51,955 bases of DNA from a virus (taxonomy: Duplodnaviria > Caudoviricetes), in IMG/VR virus record IMGVR_UViG_3300032218_002598, positions 1-51,955 of that record. The stretch is one strand, 5' to 3'. Shown one piece after another: positions 7,649 through 45,006 of this stretch; the stretch's first letter is position 1; each line of letters opens with the position of its first letter. The notes beneath the pieces are model-generated. The model ran no database searches, was not told where the DNA came from, and saw only the letters and a program-made list of their open reading frames with translations. The translations under genes and the position numbers were made by a program.

Positions 7649-7723
7649 AATTGATGATGAACCATTCGGGACCGCAGGAATAACTATCGGGAAACCACAC
7701 CCTTAACCTCAGCAACCACAACT

Positions 7724-7746
7724 AAAAGGCCTTCGGGCCTTTTTTT
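7724..7746. terminator. Bidirectional terminator at early/late convergence
   Basis: AAAAGGCC-TTCG-GGCCTTTTTTT, cUUCGg tetraloop between convergent genes. Confidence 0.9.
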
Positions 7747-7984
7747 ATAAATCTGACCTTCGATACTTCTGCTCCCATAATAACTTAGATAGTATCCTGC
7801 TGACCTTTACTACCTTAGTTTCTGACCAATCGGGGTGTATAATATGCAGGGCTTCGTGTATGAGATAAAGTAAATGCCTTTTACCTTTTAGTCGGACATC
7901 AAGTTCAATGGAATTAAGCCCCGAATCAGCAAGTCCCCAAGCCTTTTCTTTACCTAATTTCCTATTGCTTACTTTTATCTTCAT
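7745..7984 (-). CDS. Small HExxH protein (metallopeptidase-like)
   Basis: LIHEALHIIHPDWSE. Confidence 0.7.
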   Translation of the reverse strand: MKIKVSNRKLGKEKAWGLADSGLNSIELDVRLKGKRHLLYLIHEALHIIHPDWSETKVVKVSRILSKLLWEQKYRRSDL

Positions 7985-8163
7985 ACTTTTATATTTTCAA
8001 GGTCGGGCCTTTCATCTATATTTTTTACGGGGATTCCTGAATTAATACGAATACTATTTAACTGCCTTAGCTCCTTGCAGATACTTTCTACCATAGCAAT
8101 AGCATCAGAAGGGTGCATCTTTTTAAGGATATTAATAATCTTCTTTCTTAATTCGGTTTGCAT
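7981..8163 (-). CDS. Hypothetical protein
   Basis: 60-aa ORF translationally coupled on both sides. Confidence 0.65.
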   Translation of the reverse strand: MQTELRKKIINILKKMHPSDAIAMVESICKELRQLNSIRINSGIPVKNIDERPDLENIKV

Positions 8164-28797: not shown

Positions 28798-30191
28798 TAT
28801 TTTTTATTAAACTTGATTAAAGGTGCATTAGGATCTATTCTTCCCTTTTTAGCTTCTTCTGCCTTGCTACTAACTTCTGCCTTAAATTTAGTCGGAGCAT
28901 TTTGTTTTGCCCATCTGTCGTTTGCAGCTTCTCTACTAATTACTTGTCTTTCTCCTTTACTATTCTGCCCAAGCCAATCTCCTGTAGCTGGATCTTGATA
29001 ATATACTTTTTCAGTTGTTGTGGTGCCATCTGCATTTTTAAATGCCAAATCTACAGGTTTAACACCAGCAGTTATTACTGCTAACCTTTGAGGGTCTGAT
29101 TTTCGAGCTATAATTACTCTCATTGGTCTATAAGTGTTCTCTCCAATTGGTTTAACATTCAAGTCTATCCCTTGTTCTTTTGCAACAGTATCTGCTATGT
29201 TTTCTATCGCAACAGGAGTTTTATCACTACCTGTTCCTTTTGATGCTCTTGGTACTCTAACAGCTAATCCTTTTTCTTCTGTTGGTTGTGAATATTTTAA
29301 TAAAAAATCAGCTGCTGCTGCTTCTTTAGCATTTTCAATAGGCTTCCCATAATATTTTTGGAAAATAGGATCTGCCTTTGATAGCCAATAAGGATCGTTA
29401 TCTTTTAATGAATTATATGTTTTTCTCCCTCTTTTATGAACCATGTCAATGGGCTTGTCTTGTATTTCAGCCATAACTCTATCTGCCCCATCTTTTAAAA
29501 CTTTATCACTAAATGCAAGAGTATTAAAATGTTGCCCACCAACTACTTTAGTGGCAACAGTTTGCCTTTTATTATCTCCAATACCAAAATCTAATAACTT
29601 ATCCCTTTCATTTTGGTCAAAGGTAGATACTGAATGGCTTATATCTCCCCAATTAAATTCTGTACCTCCTTTATCTGAATAGTTAGGGTCGTAAAAATTC
29701 TCTTTATAATGCCTTGGGTCATTTATTGGACGAGCTACTCTTGCTTGAGCTTCCATATCATCATCATTAGGATCATATGTTCCATCAAATTTAGCTTTCT
29801 GTAATTCATTGTCGAACTTAAGTTGGTTCTTTGATTGCTGTATTTTCCCAAGAATTTCTCTTTGCATACCTTCAAACTCCATCCTTGCTGCCCCTCCCTT
29901 ATTAATTTCGTTTTTATTTTTAATCCCGTATTCTTGCCAATTCTTTATATCATTAAGAATACCATCTCCCTTTTTAGCTATTACTTTACCATTAATAATA
30001 ACATCTTCTGGATTAACTAAATCTACATTTCTAGCACCTGTTTTAGTTATTTGTTTATTTAGATCATCATAATATTTAGTATATGCTTCGTCCTTTGCTT
30101 TTTTCTTAGCATCTAAAGCTTTTATATAGGGAGTTGGGTCAAATATTCCTTGACCTTCTGTATATATACCTCTTGGAAAAATAACTGCCAT
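28797..30191 (-). CDS. Internal virion (ejection) protein
   Basis: 464 aa; synteny between pilot-like and large ejection genes. Confidence 0.65.
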   Translation of the reverse strand: MAVIFPRGIYTEGQGIFDPTPYIKALDAKKKAKDEAYTKYYDDLNKQITKTGARNVDLVNPEDVIINGKVIAKKGDGILNDIKNWQEYGIKNKNEINKGGAARMEFEGMQREILGKIQQSKNQLKFDNELQKAKFDGTYDPNDDDMEAQARVARPINDPRHYKENFYDPNYSDKGGTEFNWGDISHSVSTFDQNERDKLLDFGIGDNKRQTVATKVVGGQHFNTLAFSDKVLKDGADRVMAEIQDKPIDMVHKRGRKTYNSLKDNDPYWLSKADPIFQKYYGKPIENAKEAAAADFLLKYSQPTEEKGLAVRVPRASKGTGSDKTPVAIENIADTVAKEQGIDLNVKPIGENTYRPMRVIIARKSDPQRLAVITAGVKPVDLAFKNADGTTTTEKVYYQDPATGDWLGQNSKGERQVISREAANDRWAKQNAPTKFKAEVSSKAEEAKKGRIDPNAPLIKFNKK

Positions 30192-30202
30192 ATTTTTATT
30201 TA

Positions 30203-30907
30203 TTATTGTGGTTGCCCATATACATCAAAAGTATATCCTCTACTTGGTGTTGTCATTGTTGTTGGGAATGCTCCAGGAGATGGAGTTGTTCCATACTGCC
30301 TATTATTATAATACGAAGGAGCTGGGGTTGTATTTTTAGGTAAAGGTGTTTTACCAGCCTTACCAGCTCCACCATCCCCCATATTAGTAGCTGCTGTAGA
30401 TAACCCTGAATACACATTTTGTAACCCTTGATTCATTAATTGAGCCTTTTGTGCCCACTTTTGCATTACTAAATTAGTTTTTGCATCTTCTATTCTTTGT
30501 CTTTCTCCTGCCAATGATCTGCTTGCATATCCAAGATTTTGCAAGTCCCTTGCAGACATATTTTCAGCTTGGCCAGCTGCATTTGCTAATTGAGTCATAC
30601 CTCTTTGGTTTATACTCCCAATAGCTCCTGCGTATCCACCTTTTAACCCACCAGCTTGTAAAGCTGTAGTTTGGGCAGCTATACCTCTATTGGCCTGATT
30701 AGCCATATTTTGATAATATGTACTTTGGTAAGGGTTTGCACTATATCTTGATAAGGCTTTGTTATAATAATCTAAAATGCCTGTATCCTCTTTCATCCCT
30801 TTAACTCTAGCCTCTGCTTCTTTTCTTGCTTTTGCAGCCTGTATAGCCCCAAAAGCTGATTGGGCTAAACCTGTACCTGCCGTTATTAATCCTAACGTTA
30901 ATGGCAT
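30203..30907 (-). CDS. Pilot/DNA-ejection protein
   Basis: Hydrophobic Gly/Ala N-terminus; Ala/Gln-rich helical body. Confidence 0.7.
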   Translation of the reverse strand: MPLTLGLITAGTGLAQSAFGAIQAAKARKEAEARVKGMKEDTGILDYYNKALSRYSANPYQSTYYQNMANQANRGIAAQTTALQAGGLKGGYAGAIGSINQRGMTQLANAAGQAENMSARDLQNLGYASRSLAGERQRIEDAKTNLVMQKWAQKAQLMNQGLQNVYSGLSTAATNMGDGGAGKAGKTPLPKNTTPAPSYYNNRQYGTTPSPGAFPTTMTTPSRGYTFDVYGQPQ

Positions 30908-31320
30908 ATATATACTAATTTAATTGCGTTTTCTATATTTGATTCACTTTTATTCATTCCACATTTTATTAACCAATTAACAGCCCTTTCATTTCTTTCC
31001 CACATATAACTTTCGAAGTTGCCGTTAAATTTACTTTTTATTATTTCAAAAACCTTCTCAAGTTTTTCTTTTTTTCTAAACATTTTATTAACTCCAAAAC
31101 TTACTAGAATGTTTTTATAATTAGCCCCATACCCTACCAATATATCATCAACCATTAAATCATAAAATTCACACTCCCCAGTCTTGTCATATTCCAAAAG
31201 TTTTTCATAAATACTCTGAACTAATTCTTTCGTACTTAACTCTTTATCTTTTGGGTCGCAATATCTTGATATATCTTCATCATCCTTAAACGCATACATT
31301 ATTTTAGAATAACTTATCAT
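30898..31320 (-). CDS. GNAT-like protein
   Basis: FGV...FRK and WERNERAVNWLIKCGM; position between nozzle and ejection genes as in podoviruses. Confidence 0.6.
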   Translation of the reverse strand: MISYSKIMYAFKDDEDISRYCDPKDKELSTKELVQSIYEKLLEYDKTGECEFYDLMVDDILVGYGANYKNILVSFGVNKMFRKKEKLEKVFEIIKSKFNGNFESYMWERNERAVNWLIKCGMNKSESNIENAIKLVYICH

Positions 31321-34300
31321 CTATTTGTTAAAGGTGAATCAATATATTTCAAAGATACTATATTTAATACCACTAAGGTAGAGGGAGATATTTTACGGAA
31401 TGTTGGTATAATATACTTTCCCTTCATCGTATCTCCTCCTAGTATTCCCCCTTGTGAATTTATATCTCTTAATATTGTGGCTTCGTAACTACCTTCCAAT
31501 TGGGCAAAGTCAGAATCTACTATATTAGTAGTTTGCTTTGTTGTGCCATAGCTATTAAGGTCAGTTTCCATATTGGGGATATCCCATAATGTACTGCTTA
31601 TTTCAGATACGGCTAAGAAGGTCTTTTTCTGATAGGGATTTTCATTAAAAACGGGCGTAATTGAACTATCTGCTGTCGGGGCACCATACCAAGTATTATA
31701 TGGGGCATTGTTATGTACATATACAATCCCATCTTTAAATGACATTAAAGTAGTACCTAGTGTTACCATCATTTCTGGGTATAATGTAAGGAATGTTTCA
31801 AAGTTCCCTATTTCTTGGTCATATACGATTGTAACTTCATTATTTGTTACACTTGGGCCTAGGGCTAATATATAGTTACCTAATCTTTGGTCAAAGGCCC
31901 CTATCATAGTTCTGCCATCAATATCTCCTACTTGAGCATTTGCCCAGCTATTTACCTTATTTGTTGCAGATATAAATTCCACACCATCTTGACTTGCCCT
32001 ACAAATAGCTCCCTTAATATTTGAAGTAAAGAAATCTGCATAGTTAAAGGAAGCCAAACTTTCAGGGTTATCCCCTATCCCTACATCCCCTTGATAATAT
32101 TGGACAGGATTTAGTAGCTTATCAGATATAACCAAGTTCTCGCTATCCAAGTTTTTAACCATCTGCTGATACAAGGGCACCATTCCCACCTTTAGCTTTT
32201 GGAACACCCTCATAAACCTATCCCTAATTTTAAACCTCATTATATCTCCATAAGTATAATCGTATTGGTCAAAATCATCAAAATAAAATCTATTAAGATT
32301 ATTAGTATTTGAATTAGGTTGGTATGGCTGCCCAAAACGTACTAGTGTTGAATAGTATGCTTCTTTTGCATTTTTATCAATAATATTTGGCCTGCCACTA
32401 ATACTATTTACTGCACTTATATAACTATCTGTTACGTTTCTATCAAGTGGGAAAAAAGATAATGAAGTTAGCAAATTGTACATACTATTATATTCAAAAT
32501 ACCTTTGCCTTAAATAAATGTCCCCCTTATAAAAATTAAATTCAGCTGGTATGCCTGCTGTAAAATCTTGAACTGTAACAGAACCAAGATGAGATCTATC
32601 TGGAGTTTCTGGATTTAATACATAATATTGTTCCCCAAATTCATAATATATTATTTCATTTTTGGGTTGATTTGTTCTATATAATTGAATCATATAGTAA
32701 TACGCAGGATTAAAAGCTCCTGGTATATTAAAAACACCTTTTCTATCTACTTTTATATATGTTTTGCCTGTTGTTTGTTGCCCATTTATAAAAGGATCAG
32801 TTACAATACCAATAACCTGCGTATCATATGTTTCTGGGAATAATGTAAATGGAGCTAAATCTATTCTTTTAATAATTCTAACTCTATCCCCATCTTGGAA
32901 CGACCAACTGCATACGGCAGCTGTTGTAGGAAATGTTTCCTGTTGTAATTTTAAAAATGATAAATCAAAAAAAATATAATGTGGATCTTGTATATCTGCC
33001 TGAACAAACCAATATAAAAACTGCGTACTTTCTTGAGTAAGATAAAATTGAAAACTATGAGCCCACAAGGGTGGTCTATGATATACTTTTGCATTAATAT
33101 AAGGCAACAATACTTGCCCTGCATTATTTTCAGAGTAAGAAGGCGTACTTATTGACTCATTCCATAATATCCCATTTGTCTTACCTTTCTTATCAAAGTA
33201 TGCTATCCCTATATTTCTTTCTGTATTAAATAAAAATGTAGCAAGTGGATTATCCTGTATAGTATCTCGTGGATATTTGATAACTTCTCTACTATGTATA
33301 TATCGATTATTTTTATAATAACCTATTATAAGTGTACCTCGAGAATTGTAGCCTGTGTTAAATAGATACACTGGGACCCCCCACCCTGTCAATTGACCTG
33401 TATTATATATATTTTGAGGTATAGTCGCAGTAGTATCTGTAAGAGTAGTTGTATAAGAAACTAGTAAAGTATCACTGTTCGCTGAAGGTTTTTTTACCCA
33501 TAATTCTATTGTTGTACCAGCAGGTGGCAATCCTGTAAAATAATATTTTGTAATTGGTCGCTCAGTAAGCCCATTCATAGTACCAGTATCAAAGGGTCTT
33601 ATAGACATACTACCCAATCCAGAATTGCCTGGTCCTGCTGGTATTTTTAAAACATCAACAATAACATTGGGCGATAATATTCTATCATACCCTTCTGTTA
33701 TCGCTCCATATACCAATACATTACCATTCGCTAATTCTTGAGCCTTTGCATATGTGGGAACATAATCATAAAGCTGAACGCTTTCGTTAATATCTACGTT
33801 TGGATATGTAGAATCATTGTAAAAGTAAAATGCTATGTCAAGATTATCTACGCCATCTAAATATTCTATTTGTACACTAGAAAATAACCCTGCCGTAAGT
33901 GGATCTACGGTTATGACTAATGAATTATTATCTACTATTGCTGGAAGTGTACAATTTAATAATAAATCATTTACAAGATCAGTAATTGACCACCCTGCTT
34001 GAATAACAGAACTAGTAACTATATAAGGAGACCCAGGCAAATAGTATATTGTTACTTTTGCCCCTGGGATAGGAGTTCCAAAAAAGTTTATTCTTGTAAC
34101 TTGTACGAATGGTGGCCCTACATCTATATTAGAATATACTGTATATTCTACTTGCTTATTTAATGTTTCAATTATCTGAAAGTCGGACCAATCGTTTGTC
34201 TTATTTACATAAGACATCATTAATTCAATTCTCTTAACATCCTTATCTCCTGTATTACATTGAAGATAAATATTGTTATTATTAGATACTGTATTATAAT

Positions 34301-35606
34301 ACTCAAAATTTAATAAATTAGTAGGTATTTGCATTGTGCTTATAGGGCTACATACACTTTTAGTCAAATCATCATAAATGTACCTATACTTAAACCTAAA
34401 AAATTTATCTCTTAAATTATTAGAAACTTTTGTAGTATCATTTTTATATTGCCAGCTTGGAGGTGCCAATGGAGGTCTTTTGCATACATCAATAATATCC
34501 CTTGTTACTGGAGTATATTCTCCCAATTTGAATAATGCTATATCAAGTCCAGTTGGCCGCCCAAGTGTATCTAGGAAATATAACAAATCTCCTTCGTCCC
34601 TATTATAAATATTAACCGATGTTATTTTCTTAGTTACATCAAAGTTTAAAATATCTACCCCTCCCGTATCTACTAAGTTTTCTAATATCTTAGTAACAAG
34701 TTCTGTTTGAATATTATATTCTAATATTTGATGGTACCCTTGATTATTATGAAGAAAATATATTATTGTATTTCTTATTGTATTTGGGTATGCTCCTATA
34801 CAAGTGTACCCTGCGTTAGCTCTCCCTAGTGTTATTGTATAATAACTCCATTGGTAAGCATTAAATGGGTTTGCTATATCGTCATTGTATTCAAAATAAA
34901 AATTAGGAGGAGGGCCTGCTGCCGAGCCATTTGATATTATACCTGAAGGTAATGATACTGTATCTACCCATAAAACAACATCATCAACTCCATCTACGCC
35001 TCCAAATAAACTACCATTAAAAGTTATAAAATCAGCCCCTGCAAATGGATTCCCTGCTTTATAATTAGTACCTCCATAAAGTATAACAGAACCTGAGTAT
35101 ATATTTGAATTAAAATATAATTCAAAAGAACTACCAAATCCTACCCCTGTTGTTGAGGATGGGCTAACCGTATAAACCCCATCGGCAATAGTCCCTGTAA
35201 AAGTCCAAAGGTTTGCAACACTTATACTACTTTGCATAGCTGTTGCCAGCTCATTGCAATAATCTGTAGCAGAAAAAGATTGCGTGCTTGTATAATCTAA
35301 TACTATCCGTGGCGTAAGTGAGGGAAGCTGATTTAACTCTATTAAAGTTCTAGTTCCTGCTGAAATAACATCTGGGGATTCTATAAATATTGTTGCATTT
35401 TGATAAGTAGTTTTTACAATAGTATAGCTTGTAGTAATTACTCCAGACGCCCTATTGCCTATTACGTTTGTGATAGACCTATCATTTGATCCTGCAACAG
35501 CATCCCTAGTGATGTTCTGAGCATCTATATAGCAGTTCTTAGGTAAGATATAATAAGAATCGTCTAAGTTTAGACCCCCGCTAAAATCTGCTTTTAAATC
35601 TATCAC
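31317..35606 (-). CDS. Tail stabilization/nozzle (muzzle) protein with inserted domains
   Basis: GTG start; F.GGLN.D...Y.DA.N, F.F.YRY.YDD...S..SP, IGIAYFD..G, GIG.NPES motifs typical of crAss-like P22 gp10-type proteins. Confidence 0.8.
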   Translation of the reverse strand: MIDLKADFSGGLNLDDSYYILPKNCYIDAQNITRDAVAGSNDRSITNVIGNRASGVITTSYTIVKTTYQNATIFIESPDVISAGTRTLIELNQLPSLTPRIVLDYTSTQSFSATDYCNELATAMQSSISVANLWTFTGTIADGVYTVSPSSTTGVGFGSSFELYFNSNIYSGSVILYGGTNYKAGNPFAGADFITFNGSLFGGVDGVDDVVLWVDTVSLPSGIISNGSAAGPPPNFYFEYNDDIANPFNAYQWSYYTITLGRANAGYTCIGAYPNTIRNTIIYFLHNNQGYHQILEYNIQTELVTKILENLVDTGGVDILNFDVTKKITSVNIYNRDEGDLLYFLDTLGRPTGLDIALFKLGEYTPVTRDIIDVCKRPPLAPPSWQYKNDTTKVSNNLRDKFFRFKYRYIYDDLTKSVCSPISTMQIPTNLLNFEYYNTVSNNNNIYLQCNTGDKDVKRIELMMSYVNKTNDWSDFQIIETLNKQVEYTVYSNIDVGPPFVQVTRINFFGTPIPGAKVTIYYLPGSPYIVTSSVIQAGWSITDLVNDLLLNCTLPAIVDNNSLVITVDPLTAGLFSSVQIEYLDGVDNLDIAFYFYNDSTYPNVDINESVQLYDYVPTYAKAQELANGNVLVYGAITEGYDRILSPNVIVDVLKIPAGPGNSGLGSMSIRPFDTGTMNGLTERPITKYYFTGLPPAGTTIELWVKKPSANSDTLLVSYTTTLTDTTATIPQNIYNTGQLTGWGVPVYLFNTGYNSRGTLIIGYYKNNRYIHSREVIKYPRDTIQDNPLATFLFNTERNIGIAYFDKKGKTNGILWNESISTPSYSENNAGQVLLPYINAKVYHRPPLWAHSFQFYLTQESTQFLYWFVQADIQDPHYIFFDLSFLKLQQETFPTTAAVCSWSFQDGDRVRIIKRIDLAPFTLFPETYDTQVIGIVTDPFINGQQTTGKTYIKVDRKGVFNIPGAFNPAYYYMIQLYRTNQPKNEIIYYEFGEQYYVLNPETPDRSHLGSVTVQDFTAGIPAEFNFYKGDIYLRQRYFEYNSMYNLLTSLSFFPLDRNVTDSYISAVNSISGRPNIIDKNAKEAYYSTLVRFGQPYQPNSNTNNLNRFYFDDFDQYDYTYGDIMRFKIRDRFMRVFQKLKVGMVPLYQQMVKNLDSENLVISDKLLNPVQYYQGDVGIGDNPESLASFNYADFFTSNIKGAICRASQDGVEFISATNKVNSWANAQVGDIDGRTMIGAFDQRLGNYILALGPSVTNNEVTIVYDQEIGNFETFLTLYPEMMVTLGTTLMSFKDGIVYVHNNAPYNTWYGAPTADSSITPVFNENPYQKKTFLAVSEISSTLWDIPNMETDLNSYGTTKQTTNIVDSDFAQLEGSYEATILRDINSQGGILGGDTMKGKYIIPTFRKISPSTLVVLNIVSLKYIDSPLTNR

Positions 35607-35626
35607 TTTCTTTTATTTATTTTAAA

Positions 35627-35752
35627 GAGTGCCGTTAATATAAGGGGAACTGTGTCTTATATATAATTCCCACTAAGAGATTAATACCTTATTGGCCACA
35701 CCCCAAAGGGCACGGCCACTTATGCACAACTCCCCTTTTATTAACCGCACTC
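35627..35752 (-). ncRNA. Putative 126-nt Y-shaped (three-way junction) structured RNA
   Basis: 26-bp closing stem, 11-bp and about 10-bp arms, seven G-U pairs that form only on the minus strand, AUAAG in all three junction linkers. Confidence 0.75.
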
Positions 35753-35755
35753 ATA

Positions 35756-36625
35756 TTATTTAAAAACTGGTCTATAATATCTACTATTAACCTGATTTAC
35801 CATATATACTTCTGTTGGATTAGTTGAACCATCTACAGAATGCAATATAGAGAAAATTGGGTCAGACATTGGTCCAAAAATCTTAGGGCATAACCCATTA
35901 GCTTTTGTTGCGTTTGGATTATCAATCCCAACAGCAAAGGCATAACTAGTAACTTTCGCAAATAAATTATCCTTTACCATCCTACGATTTGTCCCTGCTA
36001 AGTTTTGCAATAAAGTAGCATTCGAGCCATTTATCCTTGATGTTAAGCTATAATTAGCCCCTGAAAAAATATTGGTATCATGCTGAGTAACCGTATAAGC
36101 AGGAGCAGCCGTATTATCTAGTTCAGTCCAAAACATATATTCATTAAAGCCTGTCAAAGAAAATTTCTCATATGGCTTAATAGTGCCTGGTAATGCCCAT
36201 TCTGTAGTTCTTGTGTTTACAATAACACCATCTCTTAGAAATTGTTGCCCTGAAAAAAACTTCCATCCTGCCCATTTTGTTACAGAATCTATAGTTGTAG
36301 GATGCACATATCTTGCTTTTTTCTTTCTAGCAACCTGTAAAGATGTAAGAAGGTCTATAACTCTTGACCTTCTTTTACCCCTATATCTAAATAAAAACAA
36401 TTCTGGGTTCCCAACAGCAAAGTCATATCCTGAATCTGCAAAGTGAGCTGTAAGGCCTGTAGACTTATACCAAGACATTATTGGAGCTGGAGGTAAAACT
36501 AATTGGCTATCAATCATATCTACAAGAGTACCACCTACTCTAAGTGCTGTATTTTCGCCAGCAACAGTAGCATTTTTTACTAAATTTGCTTCTATTAAAA
36601 GTTGATCTGTAGGTATTATAGCCAT
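35756..36625 (-). CDS. Tail-fibre-anchor domain fused to a basic domain
   Basis: N-terminal VKNATVAGENTALRVGG..L.DMIDS; then LFRYRGKRRSR...ARKKKARYVHP..KWAGW. Confidence 0.75.
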   Translation of the reverse strand: MAIIPTDQLLIEANLVKNATVAGENTALRVGGTLVDMIDSQLVLPPAPIMSWYKSTGLTAHFADSGYDFAVGNPELFLFRYRGKRRSRVIDLLTSLQVARKKKARYVHPTTIDSVTKWAGWKFFSGQQFLRDGVIVNTRTTEWALPGTIKPYEKFSLTGFNEYMFWTELDNTAAPAYTVTQHDTNIFSGANYSLTSRINGSNATLLQNLAGTNRRMVKDNLFAKVTSYAFAVGIDNPNATKANGLCPKIFGPMSDPIFSILHSVDGSTNPTEVYMVNQVNSRYYRPVFK

Positions 36626-36633
36626 ATAATTAT

Positions 36634-36936
36634 TTATTCAAAAGTGTAATCGAATGTGTAATCGAATATTTTATTCAAAATGTTATCAATAGTACTAAAA
36701 ATATTGTGTTCATCAACGAAAAAATACTGAATATTGTCGTTAAAAAAACTTGCGTTTGTAGGAAGCAATTGAAATAACACTACATCCCCAATAGAATGTC
36801 CCATTGTTGCATTATTAACCTGCTGTATAACCCCATAAAAATGATTCCTATCAAGAGGAGGGGTATTATAGTTAGCATATCCCCCTGGGGACATAGTAAT
36901 TAGAACAATAGGATATTGTAGGTTAAGGTTTATCAT
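36634..36936 (-). CDS. Divergent GroES-fold protein with FDYTFDYTFE tail
   Basis: GVI..V......IGDVVLF...YFFVDE.NI resembles the GroES C-terminal half. Confidence 0.55.
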   Translation of the reverse strand: MINLNLQYPIVLITMSPGGYANYNTPPLDRNHFYGVIQQVNNATMGHSIGDVVLFQLLPTNASFFNDNIQYFFVDEHNIFSTIDNILNKIFDYTFDYTFE

Positions 36937-37706
36937 TATGCTTTAACTGTTAACCGAGTGTTTTCAAGGTTTAACTGATAAGCTACTTCAGTAGTAAACG
37001 GCTTATATCTTGCATAGGCAAGTCTACGTTCATTAAAGTATTCGTGTCTGCGGTCTCTTTTATCCCCTAGAGCACCCCTTCTTGAAGTAGGAATACTTCT
37101 TATGTCCTTCCAAGCTAAGTAGGCTATAACTGCCTCTCTGAATTGAATAGGGACAAATATGGTTTGGTCTTGGTCGGGAGCTTGTAAATACTCAAGGATA
37201 ATATAGGCATAAGGGAATGTCTCGCTAAGTAAGATAACTCCATTCTGAGAATCAACCTTAAAGCTCCCTACAAATGGCTGCCCACTAGGAACACCATATA
37301 AATTACCATAAGCAAATCCGTCCCAATAGTTAAAGTAAACATTTCCACCTCCTACGCTTGTATTTAGTAGGGTATTGTCTTGTGTACGATTTAACCTATC
37401 AGGGAACAAGTCTGCATATGTAGTCAGCTTGTTATTCTGATAAAGAGGTATTATTTCTCCTCTGCCATTAAGTACTCCTGCCTTTACTATTTGTAGGCAA
37501 TTGGCAGGGATATCTACTGTATAATTTGCGTTTACAGGGAGCTTCTGTGTTTGTATTTGATAAAAGAAGTCCAAGCCTAATTCATCACAAGCCCTATAGG
37601 CAAGTTGAGTTAGTTTGAACTGCTTTTGAATACCTTGCTCACTTTCATCCATATAAGCTGCAACGCATTCATTAACGTCTATATATTGCAAATGTGGGGT
37701 ACCCAT
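36936..37706 (-). CDS. Tail ring/tubular protein
   Basis: 256 aa; IILEY...P..F.EA..AY..WK; synteny upstream of nozzle. Confidence 0.65.
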   Translation of the reverse strand: MGTPHLQYIDVNECVAAYMDESEQGIQKQFKLTQLAYRACDELGLDFFYQIQTQKLPVNANYTVDIPANCLQIVKAGVLNGRGEIIPLYQNNKLTTYADLFPDRLNRTQDNTLLNTSVGGGNVYFNYWDGFAYGNLYGVPSGQPFVGSFKVDSQNGVILLSETFPYAYIILEYLQAPDQDQTIFVPIQFREAVIAYLAWKDIRSIPTSRRGALGDKRDRRHEYFNERRLAYARYKPFTTEVAYQLNLENTRLTVKA

Positions 37707-37712
37707 ATTTTA

Positions 37713-37985
37713 TTAATTTTCTTCTGTAGCTAATATAGCATTTTCGTCAATCAAATAATACTTATTTCCTTCAAATTCTAATTCTTGTCCTGCATTTTGT
37801 ATTCTGTATGCTATTGATCCTGGCTTTAATCTCATTGGCCTCTTGGGAGTCCCATCTCCTACAGCTATTATCTCTACCTTACATCCGTCTTTTCTTACAG
37901 ATTCAGGAACTATAATACCTCCATAAGACATAGCATCTTCCTTAAAGGCCTTGAATAACACATTGTTTCTAATTGGCTTTATCAT
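37713..37985 (-). CDS. groES: Co-chaperonin GroES-like protein
   Basis: IKPI.N.VL, GGIIVP, IAVGDG, LKPG, EG.KY.LI.E..ILA. Confidence 0.88.
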   Translation of the reverse strand: MIKPIRNNVLFKAFKEDAMSYGGIIVPESVRKDGCKVEIIAVGDGTPKRPMRLKPGSIAYRIQNAGQELEFEGNKYYLIDENAILATEEN

Positions 37986-37990
37986 TATTT

Positions 37991-38626
37991 TTAGTTTGAA
38001 ACTCCGTCATTTGTAATATCCTGTGGTACCTGCCTCATAGCCATTAATGCCTTTACAACATACTCCACGATAAGTGGAATAATATCTTCTGGTGCATTTA
38101 AAGTGCTATTAAGATCAGTTGTTGAATTGTTTCCTGCGCCTCCCCCACTTACTAAGGTTATATTCGCTGTGTATTGATTAAGCAATAAAGAAGATAGTAT
38201 AAATAGCTTATCTCCCTCATAGTAGTATAGGAACCTATTGGGGATTCTTTTCATAGTGAACTGATACCCCTTTTGGTTTATGCTTAGAGGGATTCCGTCA
38301 ATCCCCTCATTATTATCCTTTACTAGCCTTACATCTGCTACAGCATCATTTCTTCCTATTGCAAGAGGTACTGAAGGTAATTGAACCTTCCATAAAAGAT
38401 TTTGATCCTGTACTATAGGTATATTCTTATATGTAGAGTAAAAGCTATTGTTTATATAGCTTACCCCATCTATTTGTAGACTCTCTTTATATTGATTGTG
38501 TACTGCTAAAGCAAGTCCTTGGTTTATGTATTGATTAACCAAGTTGGGAGTAATAGTACTATCGTCCCTCGGCTGGTCCCCATATACCGCCCTAAGTATT
38601 TGCTCTATTAATTGATATCTTGTCAT
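37991..38626 (-). CDS. Tail ring/adaptor protein
   Basis: 211 aa, C-terminal QVPQDITNDG; crAss-like synteny. Confidence 0.65.
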   Translation of the reverse strand: MTRYQLIEQILRAVYGDQPRDDSTITPNLVNQYINQGLALAVHNQYKESLQIDGVSYINNSFYSTYKNIPIVQDQNLLWKVQLPSVPLAIGRNDAVADVRLVKDNNEGIDGIPLSINQKGYQFTMKRIPNRFLYYYEGDKLFILSSLLLNQYTANITLVSGGGAGNNSTTDLNSTLNAPEDIIPLIVEYVVKALMAMRQVPQDITNDGVSN

Positions 38627-38635
38627 TTATTTGTT

Positions 38636-39556
38636 TTATGAATATACTCTTATTTCTATTGGGGTGTTTTGCAATGCATTATCGCCATTAAGTGCTAAAA
38701 TTTCCATCATATTAGGTGGAGCTGGGAGCGTTATTGACGCACCTGAATCACCACCACCCGTAAAGTCTGTGGTTCCTATTAAAGCAAAAGTTTTTTCATT
38801 AATAAAAAGCCCATTAGAATTTATATTATAATCACCACCTACATAATAAGTAAACCAAACATTCCCAATAGTATTCTCTAATACTGTTACTACTGGCGCT
38901 CCAGTGTTGTAATCTAATCTTATGTCTCCTGATGTAACAATTACTCCATCTTTTGTTGAAACAAAAAATGTTCCTACAGTATTATTAGGTGAACCAAATT
39001 CAGTAAAATCAAAATTTGCATCATTTATTGTTATTTCATAAGTTATTCCTTTATAAATATTTTCATCACCAACAATATAACTTGGTGCATCCCCACCATT
39101 CTGTGTTAATAAAGCTGTATACACTTTATATCCCCCTATATTTGAATTATCAATTAAATCATTGATATTTCCTGATACAAGGTAAGTATTACCCTTAAAT
39201 GTTATTGTAGAAACTCCCATTCCTGCTTCTTGTATGCCAATCCCATTTACAGGGAAAGCATAAAGCCTAGGTGCAGGTATGGGATTTTGGTTGATTTCTA
39301 GGACGCTAACCTGTACTAACGAAGTACCTGCAAGTCCCATAATAGTATTAAAACTATCTGCACAATACAATGATGTATACGCTAATTGATTTGATGTATT
39401 GCTATACCATTGAATAACCGTAGAAGCCCCTGAATATACTGGGTTATCTATTTCATATACTAATATATCTGAAGTTAATACTGACTTGTGAGCTGACATC
39501 TTTAGAGGACTGCCATCTATATAAAGTACTTGTTGTAGGTCTAACTGATTTGCCAT
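38636..39556 (-). CDS. Mosaic virion protein
   Basis: Two short N-terminal repeats plus YKVYTALLTQ...VLENTIG...IEIRVY C-terminal domain with nested insert. Confidence 0.7.
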   Translation of the reverse strand: MANQLDLQQVLYIDGSPLKMSAHKSVLTSDILVYEIDNPVYSGASTVIQWYSNTSNQLAYTSLYCADSFNTIMGLAGTSLVQVSVLEINQNPIPAPRLYAFPVNGIGIQEAGMGVSTITFKGNTYLVSGNINDLIDNSNIGGYKVYTALLTQNGGDAPSYIVGDENIYKGITYEITINDANFDFTEFGSPNNTVGTFFVSTKDGVIVTSGDIRLDYNTGAPVVTVLENTIGNVWFTYYVGGDYNINSNGLFINEKTFALIGTTDFTGGGDSGASITLPAPPNMMEILALNGDNALQNTPIEIRVYS

Positions 39557-39578
39557 TTTTATTTTATTTTATTTTATT

Positions 39579-40568
39579 TTATTGCCCTTGCTTTTTAATA
39601 TCGTTTGCGTATTGGATAATATTTTGTGATTGAAGATTAACTCCCACCATTACCAATGCTCTAGAAATTACATCAAGCATAGTTGTATCCCCCCATAGAG
39701 GTTGTACACTTGCCTGATTAATAGTTAATGTAATAGTCCCATCAAATAAGTTAAATGGAGTAATTGTAAGTGGGCTACTTGATGTTGCATAACCACTATA
39801 TGTTATAGTACCACTCCCTGCAAAAAAAGTAAGCCCCCCAAATTCAACCTTTACATAACTATTGGGTGGTATTGCTCCTGTTATTGTAACTGATATATTA
39901 TAATACAATTCCTGAACGGAACTAAATGCTCCTACTAATGGAGCTGTTCCAGCAGCAGTTGTATGGGTGTACCCTGTTGAAAATGATGTACCTGTCCATC
40001 CTGTACCCGAACCTGTTGTGGCTATCTGAGGTCCCACTTCACTATAAACAGGCCTTCCATTCCCATCTAAAGTATATGCCCAAATAACATTTGGTGCATT
40101 TCTTACATAACTTAATTTAGCTGAACCTATATTGATAGGGTAAAATTGAAACCCTGCTTCTTTTAATAAGTATATTGGATTTTGGGCTACGGGATCTATT
40201 TGGCTATTGTAAAAAGAATACAATTTGTCTTGCTCTACCTCCCTAACTCTATCGAAGTTAGCCCCATAATACATCGCATCTGCTAAAACATAATCAGATG
40301 GATATGCTACTGTTCCCTGATTATTTATTGTCAAATTACTTTCAACAATAAAGGGGGATAGTATTTGCCTTAAAGTTAGGCTTCCTCCTAATTCAACAGG
40401 TGCCACAGGCCTCCCATATTGATACTTTTGCAGACTCCCTATAAGATAAGAAATATAACTCCTCTGTGCTTGATTTATTATATTATTAAAATCAGCAGGG
40501 CTAAGATAACCCTGCTGATTCTTATTTAAGATATACTGCATCAACACATATGTGTCGTTTACGTTCAT
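39579..40568 (-). CDS. Head-tail adaptor/ring protein with inserted beta domain
   Basis: ILNKNQQGYLSP.DFN..INQAQ N-terminus; Thr/Gly-rich insert between GRPVY and VQPLW. Confidence 0.7.
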   Translation of the reverse strand: MNVNDTYVLMQYILNKNQQGYLSPADFNNIINQAQRSYISYLIGSLQKYQYGRPVAPVELGGSLTLRQILSPFIVESNLTINNQGTVAYPSDYVLADAMYYGANFDRVREVEQDKLYSFYNSQIDPVAQNPIYLLKEAGFQFYPINIGSAKLSYVRNAPNVIWAYTLDGNGRPVYSEVGPQIATTGSGTGWTGTSFSTGYTHTTAAGTAPLVGAFSSVQELYYNISVTITGAIPPNSYVKVEFGGLTFFAGSGTITYSGYATSSSPLTITPFNLFDGTITLTINQASVQPLWGDTTMLDVISRALVMVGVNLQSQNIIQYANDIKKQGQ

Positions 40569-40575
40569 CTATTTT

Positions 40576-41442
40576 CTATTTTGATATGCTTTTCAATTTA
40601 CTTAAAAACTCTCGTCCTTCAGTTGTATTGGTCATAGCTAATTCTGTCAGTTGTTTTACTGGGTTCATTTTAGAAGCCATCTTAGTGATGAAACCTCCAG
40701 ATCCCCAATAAGCTGAACCAGGCTGTTTTGCTATATCAATCTGGTTACTTATAATGGCTGACTTAATCTGCCAATGAATCTCTACTTCCTGAACATTATC
40801 AACCATTGCTTGGAATACTGTTGAATTTTTCTTAGCATAAAGCATTACTTCTTGCCTTAATGCGCTTTCTGGCTTTACTTGAGCTAACTCGTTTACAAGG
40901 TGAACCCCTATAAAACTTGCATACTTTTTTAAAGTATCAGAGTCCATCTCTTTAGCTTTGATTGCCATCTCTAATTCAAGCATTTCCTTCTTCAATGATT
41001 CTTCAGCTTGTTTAGCTGGATCATATTCAAAGAATTCAAATCTTGGTGCTCTCAGTCTGTTTTTAACCTCTAGGTTAGAATTGCACATTCTTGCAAATTC
41101 CAGAGCAGCGGTGTCCATTTTATTGATTCTACAAATACGCGCCTTAAATTCCAAAGATCTCCTGTTATTTCGGATATACTCTTTATCAATATCCTTTTGA
41201 TCTGACATCCATATTGAGCTAACTCCTGTAAGTAATCTAATCCTCTCAGCCTTCCCTGTCTTAGGATTTAATACATCATCAGTTCCATCAATATAAACAC
41301 CTTTTTTTTGATTCCCTTTCAGCTTGAAAATTACGAATTGATTTCCAACTGAACCATAAGAATTATGAATATCTACTACAACATTTTCAGATTCTTGTCT
41401 AGAGATACCCATTGCGCCTTCTACATCTGCAATACTTGCCAT
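40576..41442 (-). CDS. Conserved crAss-like protein downstream of capsid gene
   Basis: SIW...Q, FFEYDP...AE, LR...M.YAK.N...F pattern; synteny. Confidence 0.65.
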   Translation of the reverse strand: MASIADVEGAMGISRQESENVVVDIHNSYGSVGNQFVIFKLKGNQKKGVYIDGTDDVLNPKTGKAERIRLLTGVSSIWMSDQKDIDKEYIRNNRRSLEFKARICRINKMDTAALEFARMCNSNLEVKNRLRAPRFEFFEYDPAKQAEESLKKEMLELEMAIKAKEMDSDTLKKYASFIGVHLVNELAQVKPESALRQEVMLYAKKNSTVFQAMVDNVQEVEIHWQIKSAIISNQIDIAKQPGSAYWGSGGFITKMASKMNPVKQLTELAMTNTTEGREFLSKLKSISK

Positions 41443-41461
41443 TTTTTTTAATTTTTAAGGT

Positions 41462-42364: not shown

Positions 42365-42378
42365 AAATTATTTAAAGA

Positions 42379-42428
42379 AGCTGGGGCAATCAACACTTTG
42401 TATTACTTTGTATTAATTTACCCCAGCT
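42379..42428 (-). other. Long hairpin between capsid and endonuclease genes
   Basis: AGCTGGGG-TA-A-ATTAATAC...GTGTTGAT-TG-CCCCAGCT then TCTTT; contains TAATACAAAG twice. Confidence 0.65.
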
Positions 42429-42438
42429 AACTTATTGA

Positions 42439-43914
42439 TTATGAACCTGCTACAATTACGAACTGATTAGCAGCAGCCACACGAAGGCCGCGATACCCAA
42501 TCATTTCGATTTGATCTACCATAGTTCCGTTGGTTGGGTTCATAGAACCACCACCATGTTGCCATACGCGAATACCGTTTCCGATAGTACCACCTTTTTG
42601 AGGTTGTTGATACATAACAGTGATATTCTTGATATTAGCACCATCAGAAGTACTAGCATCTCTAGTTACACCTTGTGGGCAGATAACTCCGAAGTTACGG
42701 AAGTAATCAATGTTTGGAGTTAAACCAGTAGTAACTTCAGTATTGAAGCCTTTGTACTTTTTAACTTTAAACATATAACCATCGATATAAAGACTCTGAA
42801 CGCCATAATTTACGGCAGCTTCTTCTGAAGTTTCATTCTTACCCCAAACATAAGCACCAGCAGGATATTCTTGGAATATACCATCGCTGAAGTTTTGTCT
42901 TTGGAAGATATCTTGTAACCAGATGTTGTCTTTAGCACAACCGTTAACGTCCATTATACGAGTGATCTCGTGTAATTTAGCGATATCAAGAGTACCTGGA
43001 GTGTATGTTACAGTTTCTCCGTCAGCTTGTACTTTAGGAATGAATCCTTCTGTACCTACTGAGTTAGTTCCGTAAAAACCACTTCCGTTATCTACTCTGT
43101 TACCTCTCATTAACTTGTTTTCCACGTTATTAAGGAAACGTCTGTTAGATTTAACAAGACCCTTGTAAGTGAAATAACTTGTACCTGATTGAGAACCACC
43201 AGCCATATCAGGTCCGCTAACGCCAGATGAATAGTAAACTTCAGTCATTTCAGCAAGGTCAGTTGCTTTCCATGATTCACGCATCTCAGTGATGGTGTTT
43301 GATTGTTTAACATCCAAATGGATAAGTGGATCGATTGATTCAGAAGCCTCACCAGCATCCATATCACCACCAAACAAAAGAACATCAGATGTTTCGATTG
43401 TAGCTGATCCCGCAGTTGCCAAAGCTTGTGTAGCCAATTTAGGCTTAACTACAAATTGGAAAGCGAATGCAGTAGTGCTAGTGATAGCTGTGATTTGACC
43501 TTCTACGTTTGTAGATGCAATACGAATAGTTTCACCAACACGAAGTGGAGATGAATCACCATTGTTTGTGCTACCAGCTGGGCTACCATTTGTATAGTGA
43601 TCAGCTGCTGCTAGTTGCAAAGTAACTGATTGACCAGGTACAGATGGATCTCCAGATATAACATCTGAAATGCTAACACCAACCATCAATTTACCGCGAT
43701 TCTCAAACCAAAAGAAGTCACGATTTTTTACTTCTTCCATACCAGCGTAAGTAGCTAGCCATTGAAAGAATTCTTCATTACCGTACTTTTCAACATATTT
43801 GTTGTAGTACTGAGGGGTCAATAACTGAAGGTCAGATATGAGGGCCCTATTTACGCCTGATGCTAACGATATTGCACCTGGCTGTAAAATGTTTCCAGTA
43901 GGAATTCCTGCCAT
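42439..43914 (-). CDS. Major capsid protein (crAss-like HK97 fold)
   Basis: 491 aa; YVEKYGNE, FFWFE.RGKL, LRVGETI, GTEGFI..V...G; follows scaffold; codon usage of a highly expressed gene. Confidence 0.88.
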   Translation of the reverse strand: MAGIPTGNILQPGAISLASGVNRALISDLQLLTPQYYNKYVEKYGNEEFFQWLATYAGMEEVKNRDFFWFENRGKLMVGVSISDVISGDPSVPGQSVTLQLAAADHYTNGSPAGSTNNGDSSPLRVGETIRIASTNVEGQITAITSTTAFAFQFVVKPKLATQALATAGSATIETSDVLLFGGDMDAGEASESIDPLIHLDVKQSNTITEMRESWKATDLAEMTEVYYSSGVSGPDMAGGSQSGTSYFTYKGLVKSNRRFLNNVENKLMRGNRVDNGSGFYGTNSVGTEGFIPKVQADGETVTYTPGTLDIAKLHEITRIMDVNGCAKDNIWLQDIFQRQNFSDGIFQEYPAGAYVWGKNETSEEAAVNYGVQSLYIDGYMFKVKKYKGFNTEVTTGLTPNIDYFRNFGVICPQGVTRDASTSDGANIKNITVMYQQPQKGGTIGNGIRVWQHGGGSMNPTNGTMVDQIEMIGYRGLRVAAANQFVIVAGS

Positions 43915-43935
43915 TTTTTTAAATTTTTAAGTTAA

Positions 43936-44991: not shown

Positions 44992-45006
44992 TTTTTTGTT
45001 TATGTT

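What the first reader, a model, noticed from the sequence alone, without database searches (positions are those of the whole stretch)
35627..35752. Y-shaped RNA with pseudo-three-fold symmetry in the tail operon
Seen, minus strand: GAGUGC-G-GUUAAUA-A-AAGGGGAGUUGUG-C [AUAAG] UGGCCGUGCCC-UUUG-GGGUGUGGCCA [AUAAG] GUAUUAAUCUC-UUAGU-GGGAAUUAUAU [AUAAG] A-CACAGUUCCCCUU-A-UAUUAAC-G-GCACUC. This gives a 26-bp closing stem (6+7+13 bp with symmetric G.G and A.A mismatches) and two arms of 26 and 27 nt. The identical pentamer AUAAG forms each junction strand (plus-strand CTTAT at 35656, 35688, 35719). Seven G-U pairs work only on the coding strand. It starts 3 nt after the stop of 35756..36625, fills most of the intergenic gap, and has no long U tract. 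Inference: an RNA shaped to bind a homotrimer, one AUAAG per subunit. It could be excised by RNase III-type cleavage of the long stem and carried on a trimeric fibre as a ribonucleoprotein appendage, or act as an assembly scaffold or autoregulatory operator.
Basis: partly seen in the sequence, partly recalled or inferred. Interest (0 to 1): 0.92.

Follow-up and report, generated by a model that had tools for sequence, protein, structure and literature searches.

The report
Gene-linked Y-shaped phage RNA family
The Y-shaped fold is real and belongs to an apparently undescribed family of structured RNAs that always sits just after one phage gene of unknown function in very different phages; what it does is not yet known.

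Summary
Observation confirmed in every detail. The 126-nt minus-strand stretch 35627-35752 folds as a 26-bp closing helix plus two hairpins, with AUAAG on all three junction strands and 7 G-U pairs. MFE is -57.1 kcal/mol, z -7.6. It is the most stable of 6,910 130-nt windows. Rfam has no match.

New here: homologs of the upstream 289-aa gene (34-42% identity) sit in a 40-kb phage, a 310-kb jumbo phage and another fragment. In 5 of 6 lineages they are followed by the same architecture (not). A covariance model built from one lineage finds the window element (43.7 bits, E about 2e-8), and the reverse search also works. 24 of 46 pairs differ on both sides yet still pair. A natural variant rewrites hairpin 2 but leaves the closing helix and all three AUAAG untouched.

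So this is a real, gene-linked structured RNA family. My best guess for function (0.4) is a post-transcriptional processing or 3'-stabilising module with an RNase III-length helix. Binding of the upstream protein's oligomer remains possible (about 0.2) and was not tested. No expression data exist.

The parts
35627..35752 (-). Whole structured RNA element (three-way junction), 126 nt
   Evidence: MFE -57.1, z -7.57. Most stable 130-nt window of 6,910. Covariance-model match 35623-35758(-), 43.7 bits, from a model built on another lineage.
35725..35752 (-). 5' arm of closing helix P1 (RNA positions 1-28; G7 and A15 are the mismatched bases)
   Evidence: No paired position changed in the natural variant.
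35627..35654 (-). 3' arm of closing helix P1 (RNA positions 99-126)
35719..35723 (-). Junction strand 1, AUAAG
   Evidence: Unchanged in the variant.
35693..35718 (-). Hairpin 1: 11 bp, loop UUUG, 3 G-U pairs
   Evidence: Aligns with hairpin 1 of the G002 lineage in the covariance model.
35688..35692 (-). Junction strand 2, AUAAG
   Evidence: Unchanged in the variant.
35661..35687 (-). Hairpin 2: 4+4 bp, loop UUAGU. Hypervariable arm: 11 of the 15 substitutions of the natural variant fall here, and it still forms a hairpin.
35656..35660 (-). Junction strand 3, AUAAG
   Evidence: Unchanged in the variant.
35756..36625 (-). Upstream 289-aa gene of unknown function, the gene the RNA travels with. 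N-terminal helical hairpin plus beta-sandwich; conserved basic patch around residues 100-103.
   Evidence: 22 unnamed homologs. AF2 model pLDDT 78.9. No family hit. Invariant residues.
35607..35626 (-). A-rich 20-nt leader between the closing helix and the GTG start of the next gene
   Evidence: The same 10-20 nt spacing is seen in relatives.
31317..35606 (-). Downstream 1429-aa muzzle-like tail gene. It is the neighbour in this phage only.
   Evidence: PF25729 and phrog_14478. Downstream genes differ in the other lineages.

Best explanation
The element is a real structured RNA made as part of the operon transcript. It belongs to an apparently undescribed RNA family that is inherited together with the 289-aa gene directly upstream, forming a 'gene + 3' RNA' cassette found in unrelated phage backbones. 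I think it most likely acts after transcription on that mRNA. The long, nearly perfect closing helix (26 bp here, 17-28 bp in relatives) would be a double-strand-specific (RNase III-type) processing site and/or a barrier to 3' exonucleases. This would separate the upstream cistron from whatever gene follows and set its mRNA level. The two inner hairpins and the conserved junction strands would keep the helix nucleated and might add a protein contact. Shown: the fold, its strand, its homology across lineages, its linkage to the gene, and which parts are constrained. Inferred: transcription through it, cleavage or stabilisation, and the enzyme.
For: 1) It sits inside a same-strand operon, 3 nt after a stop codon and 20 nt before the next start. 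In relatives the stop-to-stem distance is 0-20 nt and the stem-to-start distance 10-20 nt. It therefore fills an intercistronic spacer. 2) RNA level and strand: 7 G-U pairs. Sense MFE is lower than antisense in 5 of 5 members (37/77, 68/69). 1-nt insertions in the natural variant rule out coding. 3) The family is real. R1, built from G002/L010 only, finds the window element at 43.7 bits (E about 2e-8; next unrelated hit E 0.5) and G001b at 29.2 bits. R2, built from the window element plus G001b, finds L010 (66.8 bits), G002 (57.1), G004 (27.8, E 1.8e-5) and G001a (18.7, E 0.0085). 4) The helices are kept by matched changes. Window vs G002: of 46 model pairs, 14 same, 2 one-sided, 24 two-sided, 4 broken in the window element, 1 broken in G002, 1 gap. 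L005 vs L010: 4 two-sided changes among 52 predicted pairs. 5) The closing helix is the most constrained part. In the variant, 0 of its 52 paired bases change, against 15 substitutions in the element overall. Its outer 24 pairs are identical between L005 and L010. 6) It is always at least 17 bp, far longer than a simple stabilising or terminator hairpin needs. It carries symmetric 1x1 mismatches, as phage T7 RNase III sites carry internal loops (recalled knowledge). 7) In this phage the 491-aa gene 42439..43914 is also followed by a long (18-bp) hairpin with a similar UCUUUAAAUAA tail. The one canonical GC-hairpin-plus-U-run terminator lies at the convergent gap 7426-8162. In-operon long hairpins are thus a separate class here.
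Against: No RNA data exist: no RNA run is listed among the holders, so no transcript end, cleavage or abundance is known. A plain long hairpin would be enough for processing or stabilisation. That leaves unexplained why two inner hairpins and three near-identical junction strands are kept over 34-42% protein identity, and why the linkers change in concert. One lineage (G003/L004) has the gene but no significant fold (z -0.32) and no model hit. The hosts are unknown, so the presence of RNase III is assumed. The pair counts come from an alignment fitted to the structure.
Confidence: 0.4

Rival explanations
1. Specific protein-binding RNA. The junction, with three like single strands and two like hairpin loops, would be recognised by an oligomer, most simply the upstream 289-aa protein. 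The RNA would act as an autoregulatory operator, an assembly scaffold or a ribonucleoprotein partner.
For: The RNA follows this gene in four different phage backbones and after both tandem paralogs in G001. Whole-record searches find it nowhere else. The linkers are alike within an element yet differ between lineages. All three AUAAG are untouched in a variant that changes 41% of hairpin 2. Hairpin loops recur as CC-UUUG/UUWK-GG. The two units are 97% identical in L010. Three copies of the protein: score 0.49 against a best control of 0.00. The model supports binding but does not show it. The mark was reached by 20 of 30 proteins solved as pairs of one chain and 1 of 23 solved as single chains. 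Runs agree in at least 23% of contacts, and the partner's pLDDT is at least 73. The job differs from the calibration (three copies, own alignment). The interface is the N-terminal helices 6-41. A basic patch (R100, K102, K103) is invariant in 24 sequences.
Against: There is no test of RNA binding. No RNA-binding fold or family was found in the protein. The stoichiometry is not established, since only three copies were tried. The RNA is not three-fold symmetric beyond the linkers. G001a has three inner hairpins and G003 has no fold. Concerted linkers can also arise from unequal recombination between tandem units.
Confidence: 0.2
2. Transcription terminator or attenuator carried by a mobile gene cassette (a 'moron' with its own terminator). 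It would lower transcription into the next gene.
For: The position is right after a stop codon. The gene sits in unrelated contexts: after TerL in G002, after an endolysin in G003, after a Dam methylase and a 196-aa gene in G004, and in the tail module here. A U-rich run follows the helix in G002, L010 and G004.
Against: Only UUU follows the helix here, and A-rich runs follow it in G001a and G001b. The consensus scan does not call it a terminator. A 26-28 bp helix enclosing a junction is unlike the phage's own canonical terminator. The next gene starts 10-20 nt later on the same strand and needs read-through.
Confidence: 0.18
3. The enclosed roughly 70-nt two-hairpin RNA is released and acts in trans, for example as a decoy or sponge for a host factor or defence protein.
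For: A long closing helix around a compact RNA is how rRNA and some small RNAs are excised (recalled). The arm is hypervariable while the frame is conserved, which could reflect an arms race. The architecture resembles two-hairpin sponge RNAs such as TwoAYGGAY (10.64898/2026.09.22.753630, passages).
Against: This does not explain the strict linkage to one gene family. No known loop motif is present. There is no Rfam match and there are no expression data.
Confidence: 0.08
4. DNA-level element: a folded single-stranded recombination or replication site, or a REP/REPIN/MITE-like palindromic repeat.
For: The + strand also folds well (z -6.31; in G001a the antisense z is -8.08 against -7.01 for sense). 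The 32-bp tandem units are about three DNA turns long. Earlier notes of this scan describe many branched palindromic repeats in bacteria (leads only).
Against: There is a single copy in the 52-kb genome. Whole-record searches of five phage records find only the gene-adjacent copies. No target-site duplication is visible. G-U pairs and the covariance-model scores favour one strand, the transcribed one. No reverse transcriptase is present.
Confidence: 0.06

Closest known systems
RNase III processing signals between cistrons of phage T7 early/late mRNAs, and the lambda sib site (recalled knowledge, not read here)
   Same: Intercistronic position in a phage operon. A double helix of about two turns or more, interrupted by small symmetric mismatches. 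RNA level, on the transcribed strand.
   Different: Those are single irregular hairpins. This helix closes a three-way junction with two further hairpins and three like linkers, and it travels with one gene family across unrelated phages. Cleavage is not shown here.
Intrinsic terminators and 3' stabilising hairpins after abundant phage structural genes
   Same: Lies directly after a stop codon. This phage also has a long hairpin after its 491-aa gene.
   Different: No U tract here. It is branched and far longer than needed, and its junction sequence is conserved.
phi29 packaging RNA (pRNA)
   Same: A phage-encoded RNA of about 120 nt built on a three-way junction that works with a homo-oligomeric structural protein (recalled).
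   Different: No Rfam match. It lies inside an operon and is not a separate gene near a genome end. Its two loops (UUUG, UUAGU) are not complementary to each other, so it lacks the loop-loop pairing that makes pRNA rings.
TwoAYGGAY RNA (RF01731) and other two-hairpin protein sponges
   Same: A basal stem plus two hairpins carrying the same loop motif (10.64898/2026.09.22.753630, passages read).
   Different: The loops here are UUUG/UUWK and not AYGGAY. Rfam gives no hit. It is single-copy and gene-linked.
REP/BIME/REPIN-type branched palindromic repeats
   Same: A closing stem around small hairpins, with shape kept by matched changes (earlier notes).
   Different: It is not dispersed: one copy per gene copy. 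It is strand-specific.

Membership tests
Any Rfam 15 family | Score at or above the family's gathering threshold | tested here: not met
   0 matches in the whole window. In E-value mode on 35400-36000 the only match is PyrG_leader at 19 bits against a gathering score of 65, E 7.1, beside the element.
tRNA / tmRNA | Cloverleaf recognised by ARAGORN | tested here: not met
   0 genes in the window.
Intrinsic (Rho-independent) terminator | Run of U (at least 5 of 8) directly after a G+C-rich hairpin | tested here: not met
   Only UUU follows the helix. It is not among the 14 terminator-like sites of 30000-45000. In relatives the tail is U-rich in G002, L010 and G004 and A-rich in G001a and G001b.
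RNase III processing site | Continuous double helix of about 20 bp or more | tested here: met
   26 bp with two 1x1 mismatches. Relatives have 28, 20, about 17 and 17 bp.
RNase III processing site | Cleavage by RNase III in vivo or in vitro | not testable with these tools
   No RNA run holds the sequence and the host is unknown.
phi29-type pRNA | Complementary left and right loops for intermolecular ring formation; separate gene near a genome end | tested here: not met
   The loops UUUG and UUAGU are not complementary. The element lies mid-genome inside an operon. No Rfam hit. The defining features are recalled.
REP / REPIN / MITE | Many dispersed copies; target-site duplication for MITEs | tested here: not met
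   One copy in the 51,955-bp record. R2 finds only gene-adjacent copies in G000, G001 and G002, and none in G003 or G004 at E <= 0.1. The flanks show no duplication. Host genomes could not be searched.
Retron / DGR / UG27 template RNA | Adjacent reverse transcriptase | tested here: not met
   No PF00078 match in the record at E <= 0.1. The control rings in 4 of 14 genomes.
New family proposed here (3' element of the 289-aa gene) | Closing helix with A/U-rich + GGG ... CCC + A/U-rich core, two inner hairpins, like linkers, directly 3' of a homolog of 35756..36625 | tested here: met
   Met in 5 of 6 gene lineages by fold (not). Reciprocal covariance-model hits.

The most novel reading that the evidence does not exclude
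The RNA is the dedicated partner of the protein encoded just upstream. The fibre-like protein would oligomerise through its N-terminal helices and clamp the three identical junction strands, giving a phage ribonucleoprotein or a 3'-end autoregulatory operator. Linker motif and protein would co-evolve as one mobile 'protein + RNA' cassette. Apart from phi29 pRNA, no structural or accessory phage protein is known to me to carry its own cognate RNA in this way (recalled).
Probability: 0.17. Interest if true: 0.85.

Novelty: new variant of a known kind. Interest (0 to 1): 0.6.

Why it matters
Structured RNAs in phage genomes are poorly charted. This one is conserved across a crAss-like 52-kb phage, a 40-kb phage and a 310-kb jumbo phage, and it is strictly tied to one gene of unknown function. 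That linkage gives a testable handle on both the RNA and the protein.

If it is a processing or stabilising module, it would be a portable expression-control part that phages exchange together with a gene. If it binds the gene's own product, it would be a rare phage protein-RNA pair.

The pattern of constraint is unusual. The junction strands and closing helix are fixed while one arm is rewritten in nature, and this pattern tells an experimenter which mutants to make.

Tried and rejected
- **Rfam** and ARAGORN: nothing.
- **The repeat finder** with a 9-nt seed listed 16 inverted pairs, none at the element. TRF on 35580-35800 gave 0 rows.
- **RNA evidence:** no RNA holder is listed among the 20 runs, all DNA.
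- **Public collections:**
  - blastn of the region against 50,697 phage records: no match.
  - tblastn of the 289-aa protein and of the 491-aa protein against the same records: no match.
  - Genome contigs: no relative of the protein by two routes.
- **Fold of the 289-aa protein:**
  - No Foldseek match at E <= 0.001 in PDB or BFVD (best 3.6e-3).
  - VIA-align best Z is 5.5, on the N-terminal helices only.
  - Atlas hits all score under 0.9 (pyocin-knob, XkdV_N; leads only).
- **Reverse transcriptase:** none.
- **G003/L004 lineage:** a 173-nt spacer with three loose direct repeats but z -0.32 and no model hit. I counted it as a miss.
- **L013:** the contig ends 5 nt after the stop, so it is uninformative and was dropped from the counts.
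- **Duplicate loci counted once:** L003, L006, L007, L011, L018 and L019 repeat G001. L008, L012, L014 and L017 repeat G003. L015 repeats G002. L016 repeats G004.
- **Ideas rejected by reading the sequence:**
  - Stop-codon read-through: another stop follows within 5 codons.
  - -1 frameshifting: no X XXY YYZ heptamer in frame.
  - Ribosomal bypass: a UUUAAA lies on both sides of the helix, but landing there meets a stop after 6 codons.
  - A small ORF starting at the AUG that overlaps position 35752: not conserved in relatives, and broken by 1-nt insertions in the variant.
  - Integron attC site: the recalled core order RYYYAAC...GTTRRRY is not present.
  - Hammerhead core: absent.
- **Hosts:** searching relatives' or hosts' genomes with the RNA model is not possible for a virus record.
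- **Literature:** searches found no description of this element.
  - PMC10690425 lists about 10,000 candidate structured RNAs from IMG/VR. I read passages only and its supplementary tables are closed, so it may list this motif.

Full report
**1. The observation**

- RNAfold gives a closing helix of 6+7+14 pairs interrupted by G.G and A.A mismatches.
- Hairpin 1 has 11 bp and a UUUG loop. Hairpin 2 has 4+4 bp and a UUAGU loop.
- MFE is -57.1 kcal/mol against -31.2 +/- 3.4 for 200 dinucleotide shuffles. That is z -7.57, and none of the shuffles folds as well.
- CTTAT occurs at 35656, 35688 and 35719 and nowhere else in 35600-35800. Seven of the 46 MFE pairs are G-U.
- The + strand folds less well (-45.2, z -6.31).
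- In a sliding 130-nt fold of both strands of the whole window (6,910 windows, mean -20.4, sd 6.3), the element is the extreme at -58.3. The next window is -44.3.
- Three given pentamers being identical has a composition-based chance of about 2e-6 to 4e-6.
- The record is a 51,955-bp virus genome rated 98% complete and holds one copy.

**2. Context**

All neighbouring genes are on the minus strand.
- The downstream 1429-aa protein has the Crassvirus muzzle C-terminal domain and a virion-structural PHROG.
- 37991..38626 resembles tail ring protein 2 (25.5 bits, just under the cut-off of 27).
- 37713..37985 is a Cpn10/GroES-like protein.
- The upstream 289-aa protein matches no Pfam or PHROG family.
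- The element begins 3 nt after its stop codon and ends 20 nt before the GTG start of the muzzle gene. Only UUU follows the helix.
- Rfam has no match at gathering thresholds in the window. In E-value mode only a chance-level PyrG_leader hit lies beside the element. There is no tRNA or tmRNA.

**3. Relatives**

The 289-aa protein has 22 unnamed relatives in the large protein collection. DNA context could be fetched for six gene lineages.

| Lineage | Record and gene | Closing helix | Sense MFE / z | Antisense MFE / z |
|---|---|---|---|---|
| Window | L009 is a 94% aa relative with the element 126/126 identical | 26 bp | -57.1 / -7.57 | -45.2 / -6.31 |
| G001a | First of two tandem paralogs (56% identical) in a 48.6-kb fragment | 20 bp, three inner hairpins | -71.7 / -7.0 | -66.4 / -8.08 |
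| G001b | Second paralog of G001 | 9+5+3 pairs, two hairpins with identical CCC-UUAU-GGGG tips | -44.8 / -4.2 | -36.1 / -3.95 |
| G002 | L005; 40.1-kb contig, with metagenome relative L010 | 28 bp, two tandem hairpins | -57.2 / -8.0 | -44.8 / -5.5 |
| G004 | 310-kb jumbo phage with terminal repeats | 17 bp, starting in the stop codon | -37.9 / -4.5 | -25.1 / -2.7 |
| G003 | L004, L012 and L014, same sequence | no significant fold | -39.7 / -0.32 | -26.5 / 0.35 |

- So 5 of 6 lineages carry a strongly folding element of the same design directly after the gene.
- In every one of these five the sense strand has the lower energy. Its z-score is also better in 4 of 5; G001a is the exception.
- L013 ends 5 nt after the stop and is uninformative.
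- In sliding folds the element is the top structure of G001 (-63.6; mean -23.0, sd 6.7) and G001b ranks fourth. It is also the top structure of G002.
- The helix ends 10-20 nt before the next start codon in all members.
- The flanking genes are otherwise unrelated:
  - G002: TerL, then a 132-aa gene, then the homolog.
  - G003: a GIY-YIG endonuclease, then an endolysin, then the homolog.
  - G004: a Dam methylase, then a 196-aa gene, then the homolog.
  - G001a: the next gene is the paralog.
- The RNA therefore goes with the gene, not with the tail module.

**4. Homology and covariation**

- Model R1 was built only from the G002 lineage (three rows, hand-given three-way-junction structure).
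  - With filters off it finds the window element full-length at 43.7 bits (E about 2e-8; E-values are rough).
  - The opposite strand scores 25.6 bits and the next hit has E 0.5.
  - It also finds G001b (29.2 bits, E 1e-4), G004 (20 bits, E 0.02) and, not significantly, G001a (14.7 bits, E 0.37). It finds nothing in L004.
- The reciprocal model R2 was built from the window element plus G001b.
  - It finds L010 (66.8 bits), G002 (57.1), G004 (27.8, E 1.8e-5) and G001a (18.7, E 0.0085, partial). Again nothing in L004.
- Over the 46 model pairs, window vs G002 gives 14 identical pairs, 2 changed on one side, 24 changed on both sides with pairing kept, 4 broken in the window element (two are the symmetric mismatches), 1 broken in G002 and 1 gap. 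This alignment is fitted to the structure, so the counts lean towards it. However, each sequence folds to the same design on its own.
- Within the G002 lineage, RNAalifold predicts 52 pairs. Four have two-sided changes, one a one-sided change, and three are broken. Element identity (86%) is like that of the flanks (84-85%).
- Whole-record searches with R2 find only the gene-adjacent copies in G000, G001 and G002. G003 and G004 give none at E <= 0.1 under the genome-scale filter.

**5. Natural variation**

Contigs of four freshwater and sediment DNA runs were laid on 35100-36300.
- One allele, seen in X5 and X9, has 15 substitutions and two 1-nt insertions within the 126 nt. The 780 nt of flanks covered by the X5 contig have 22 substitutions. 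That is about 12% against 2.8%.
- Eleven of the 15 substitutions fall in hairpin 2, two in hairpin 1, one at C29 and one at the mismatched G7.
- None falls in the 52 paired bases of the closing helix or in the three AUAAG.
- Applied in a script, the variant still folds to the Y shape at -55.0 kcal/mol. U67-A91 becomes C-G and G66-U92 becomes G-C. C39-G56 in hairpin 1 becomes U.U, a break.
- The tool hid 85 less-supported rows, so X3 and X10 can only be said to match the window at the listed places.

**6. The three-fold feature**

- The linkers are AUAAG x3 here; CUAAU, CUAAU, CUACU in G002; CUAUU, CUAUU, CUACU in L010.
- In G001b all three carry UUGUUARU or UUGAUUAGU.
- They are alike within an element and different between lineages.
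- In L010 the inner part is a tandem repeat of a 32-nt 'linker + hairpin' unit, 2.3 copies, 97% matches. Here the units are 31 and 32 nt, but the hairpins have diverged.
- The triple pentamer is therefore the trace of a tandemly repeated unit.
- Its persistence despite hairpin divergence, and in the variant allele, points to constraint on the junction strands.
- The helices are not equivalent (26, 11 and about 8 bp), so the 'pseudo-three-fold' symmetry is limited to the junction.

**7. The protein**

- The AF2 model has mean pLDDT 78.9 and pTM 0.75. It shows an N-terminal helical hairpin (6-40) followed by a beta-sandwich.
- No significant structural match was found: PDB Foldseek, VIA-align best Z 5.5 on the helices only, BFVD best E 3.6e-3.
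- Atlas leads all score under 0.9 and point to phage knob or fibre-like proteins.
- One homolog's N-terminus weakly matches a tail-fibre PHROG (E 0.006).
- R100, K102 and K103 are invariant in 24 sequences.
- Three copies of the protein: score 0.49, best of 3 controls 0.00.
  - The model supports binding but does not show it.
  - The mark was reached by 20 of 30 proteins solved as pairs of one chain and by 1 of 23 solved as single chains.
  - Runs agree in at least 23% of contacts, and the partner's pLDDT is at least 73.
  - The job is unlike the calibration (three copies, own alignment).
  - The interface is residues 6-41. Only three copies were tried.

**8. What it most likely does**

What is shown:
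- It is a conserved, strand-specific RNA structure, co-inherited with one gene and filling the spacer to the next gene.
- The closing helix and junction strands are constrained, while one arm is free to change.

What is inferred (no RNA data exist):
- Best explanation (0.4): a post-transcriptional module. The helix is of RNase III length (17-28 bp) with small symmetric mismatches. It would be a processing site and/or a 3' exonuclease barrier that sets the level of the upstream cistron independently of the downstream gene.
  - Two observations fit this. In-operon long hairpins occur elsewhere in this phage, after the 491-aa gene. The single canonical terminator of the window looks quite different.
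  - The weakness is that a plain hairpin would do the same job. The kept junction and the concerted linkers call for something more.
- That 'something more' keeps the protein-binding reading alive (about 0.2).
- A cassette terminator (about 0.18) is weakened by the missing U tract here and in both G001 elements.
- A released trans-acting RNA (about 0.08) and a DNA-level site (about 0.06) are less likely.

**9. Comparison with known systems**

- It works most like intercistronic RNase III or stability signals of phage operons, but it is branched and gene-linked.
- It shares the three-way junction and the partnership with an oligomeric phage protein with phi29 pRNA. It fails pRNA's defining loop-loop complementarity and gene position.
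- It resembles two-hairpin sponge RNAs in outline only.
- It is not a dispersed REP-like repeat and has no reverse transcriptase nearby.
- No paper found in five searches describes it.
- PMC10690425 (passages read) catalogues thousands of candidate phage RNAs. Its closed supplements could contain this motif.

**10. Verdict**

- Interest 0.6: a solid new phage RNA motif with an unusual constraint pattern and a clear experimental path, but with no functional data.

Noticed in passing
window 41462-42364 (-) and 42376-42433 (-): A free-standing GIY-YIG/NUMOD homing-endonuclease gene (300 aa) lies directly after the 491-aa gene. It is separated from it by a 74-nt spacer that holds an 18-bp hairpin followed by UCUUUAAAUAA.
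   Followed up: partly
window 37713-37985 (-): A Cpn10/GroES-like co-chaperonin gene sits inside the tail module (PF00166, 52.7 bits).
   Followed up: no
window 45337-48231 (-) and 48753-50477 (-): A 964-aa BspA-type leucine-rich-repeat protein (PF13306, 330 bits) and a 574-aa protein with a Fibrobacter succinogenes major domain (PF09603, 233 bits). Both are surface or adhesin-like proteins in a phage genome.
   Followed up: no
G002 (L027:1-192 and L005/L022 end): The 40,101-bp contig labelled 'linear' has a 192-nt overlap between its two ends with one mismatch. It is probably a circular assembly or has a terminal repeat, and the overlap contains the RNA element.
   Followed up: partly
L002:2914-4818 (G001): Tandem duplication of the 289-aa-type gene (56% identity, same MPSYIEL N-terminus). 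Each copy has its own diverged copy of the RNA element.
   Followed up: yes
L004:3841-4013 (G003): In the one lineage without a significant fold, the 173-nt spacer after the homolog carries three loose direct repeats (GRGAAATGG...). The next gene starts with a lipoprotein-like signal.
   Followed up: partly
window 35661-35687 (-): Hairpin 2 is a hotspot of natural variation. It takes 11 of the 15 substitutions of the variant allele in 27 nt (about 41%), against about 2.8% in the flanks. The cause, a recombination patch or diversifying selection, is unexplained.
   Followed up: partly
window 7426-8162: The convergent gap between the + and - gene blocks holds a canonical bidirectional terminator-like GC hairpin flanked by A and U runs.
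   Followed up: no
P0010 (486 aa): One homolog is fused to an N-terminal DUF6712 domain (PF20459, 76.9 bits).
   Followed up: no
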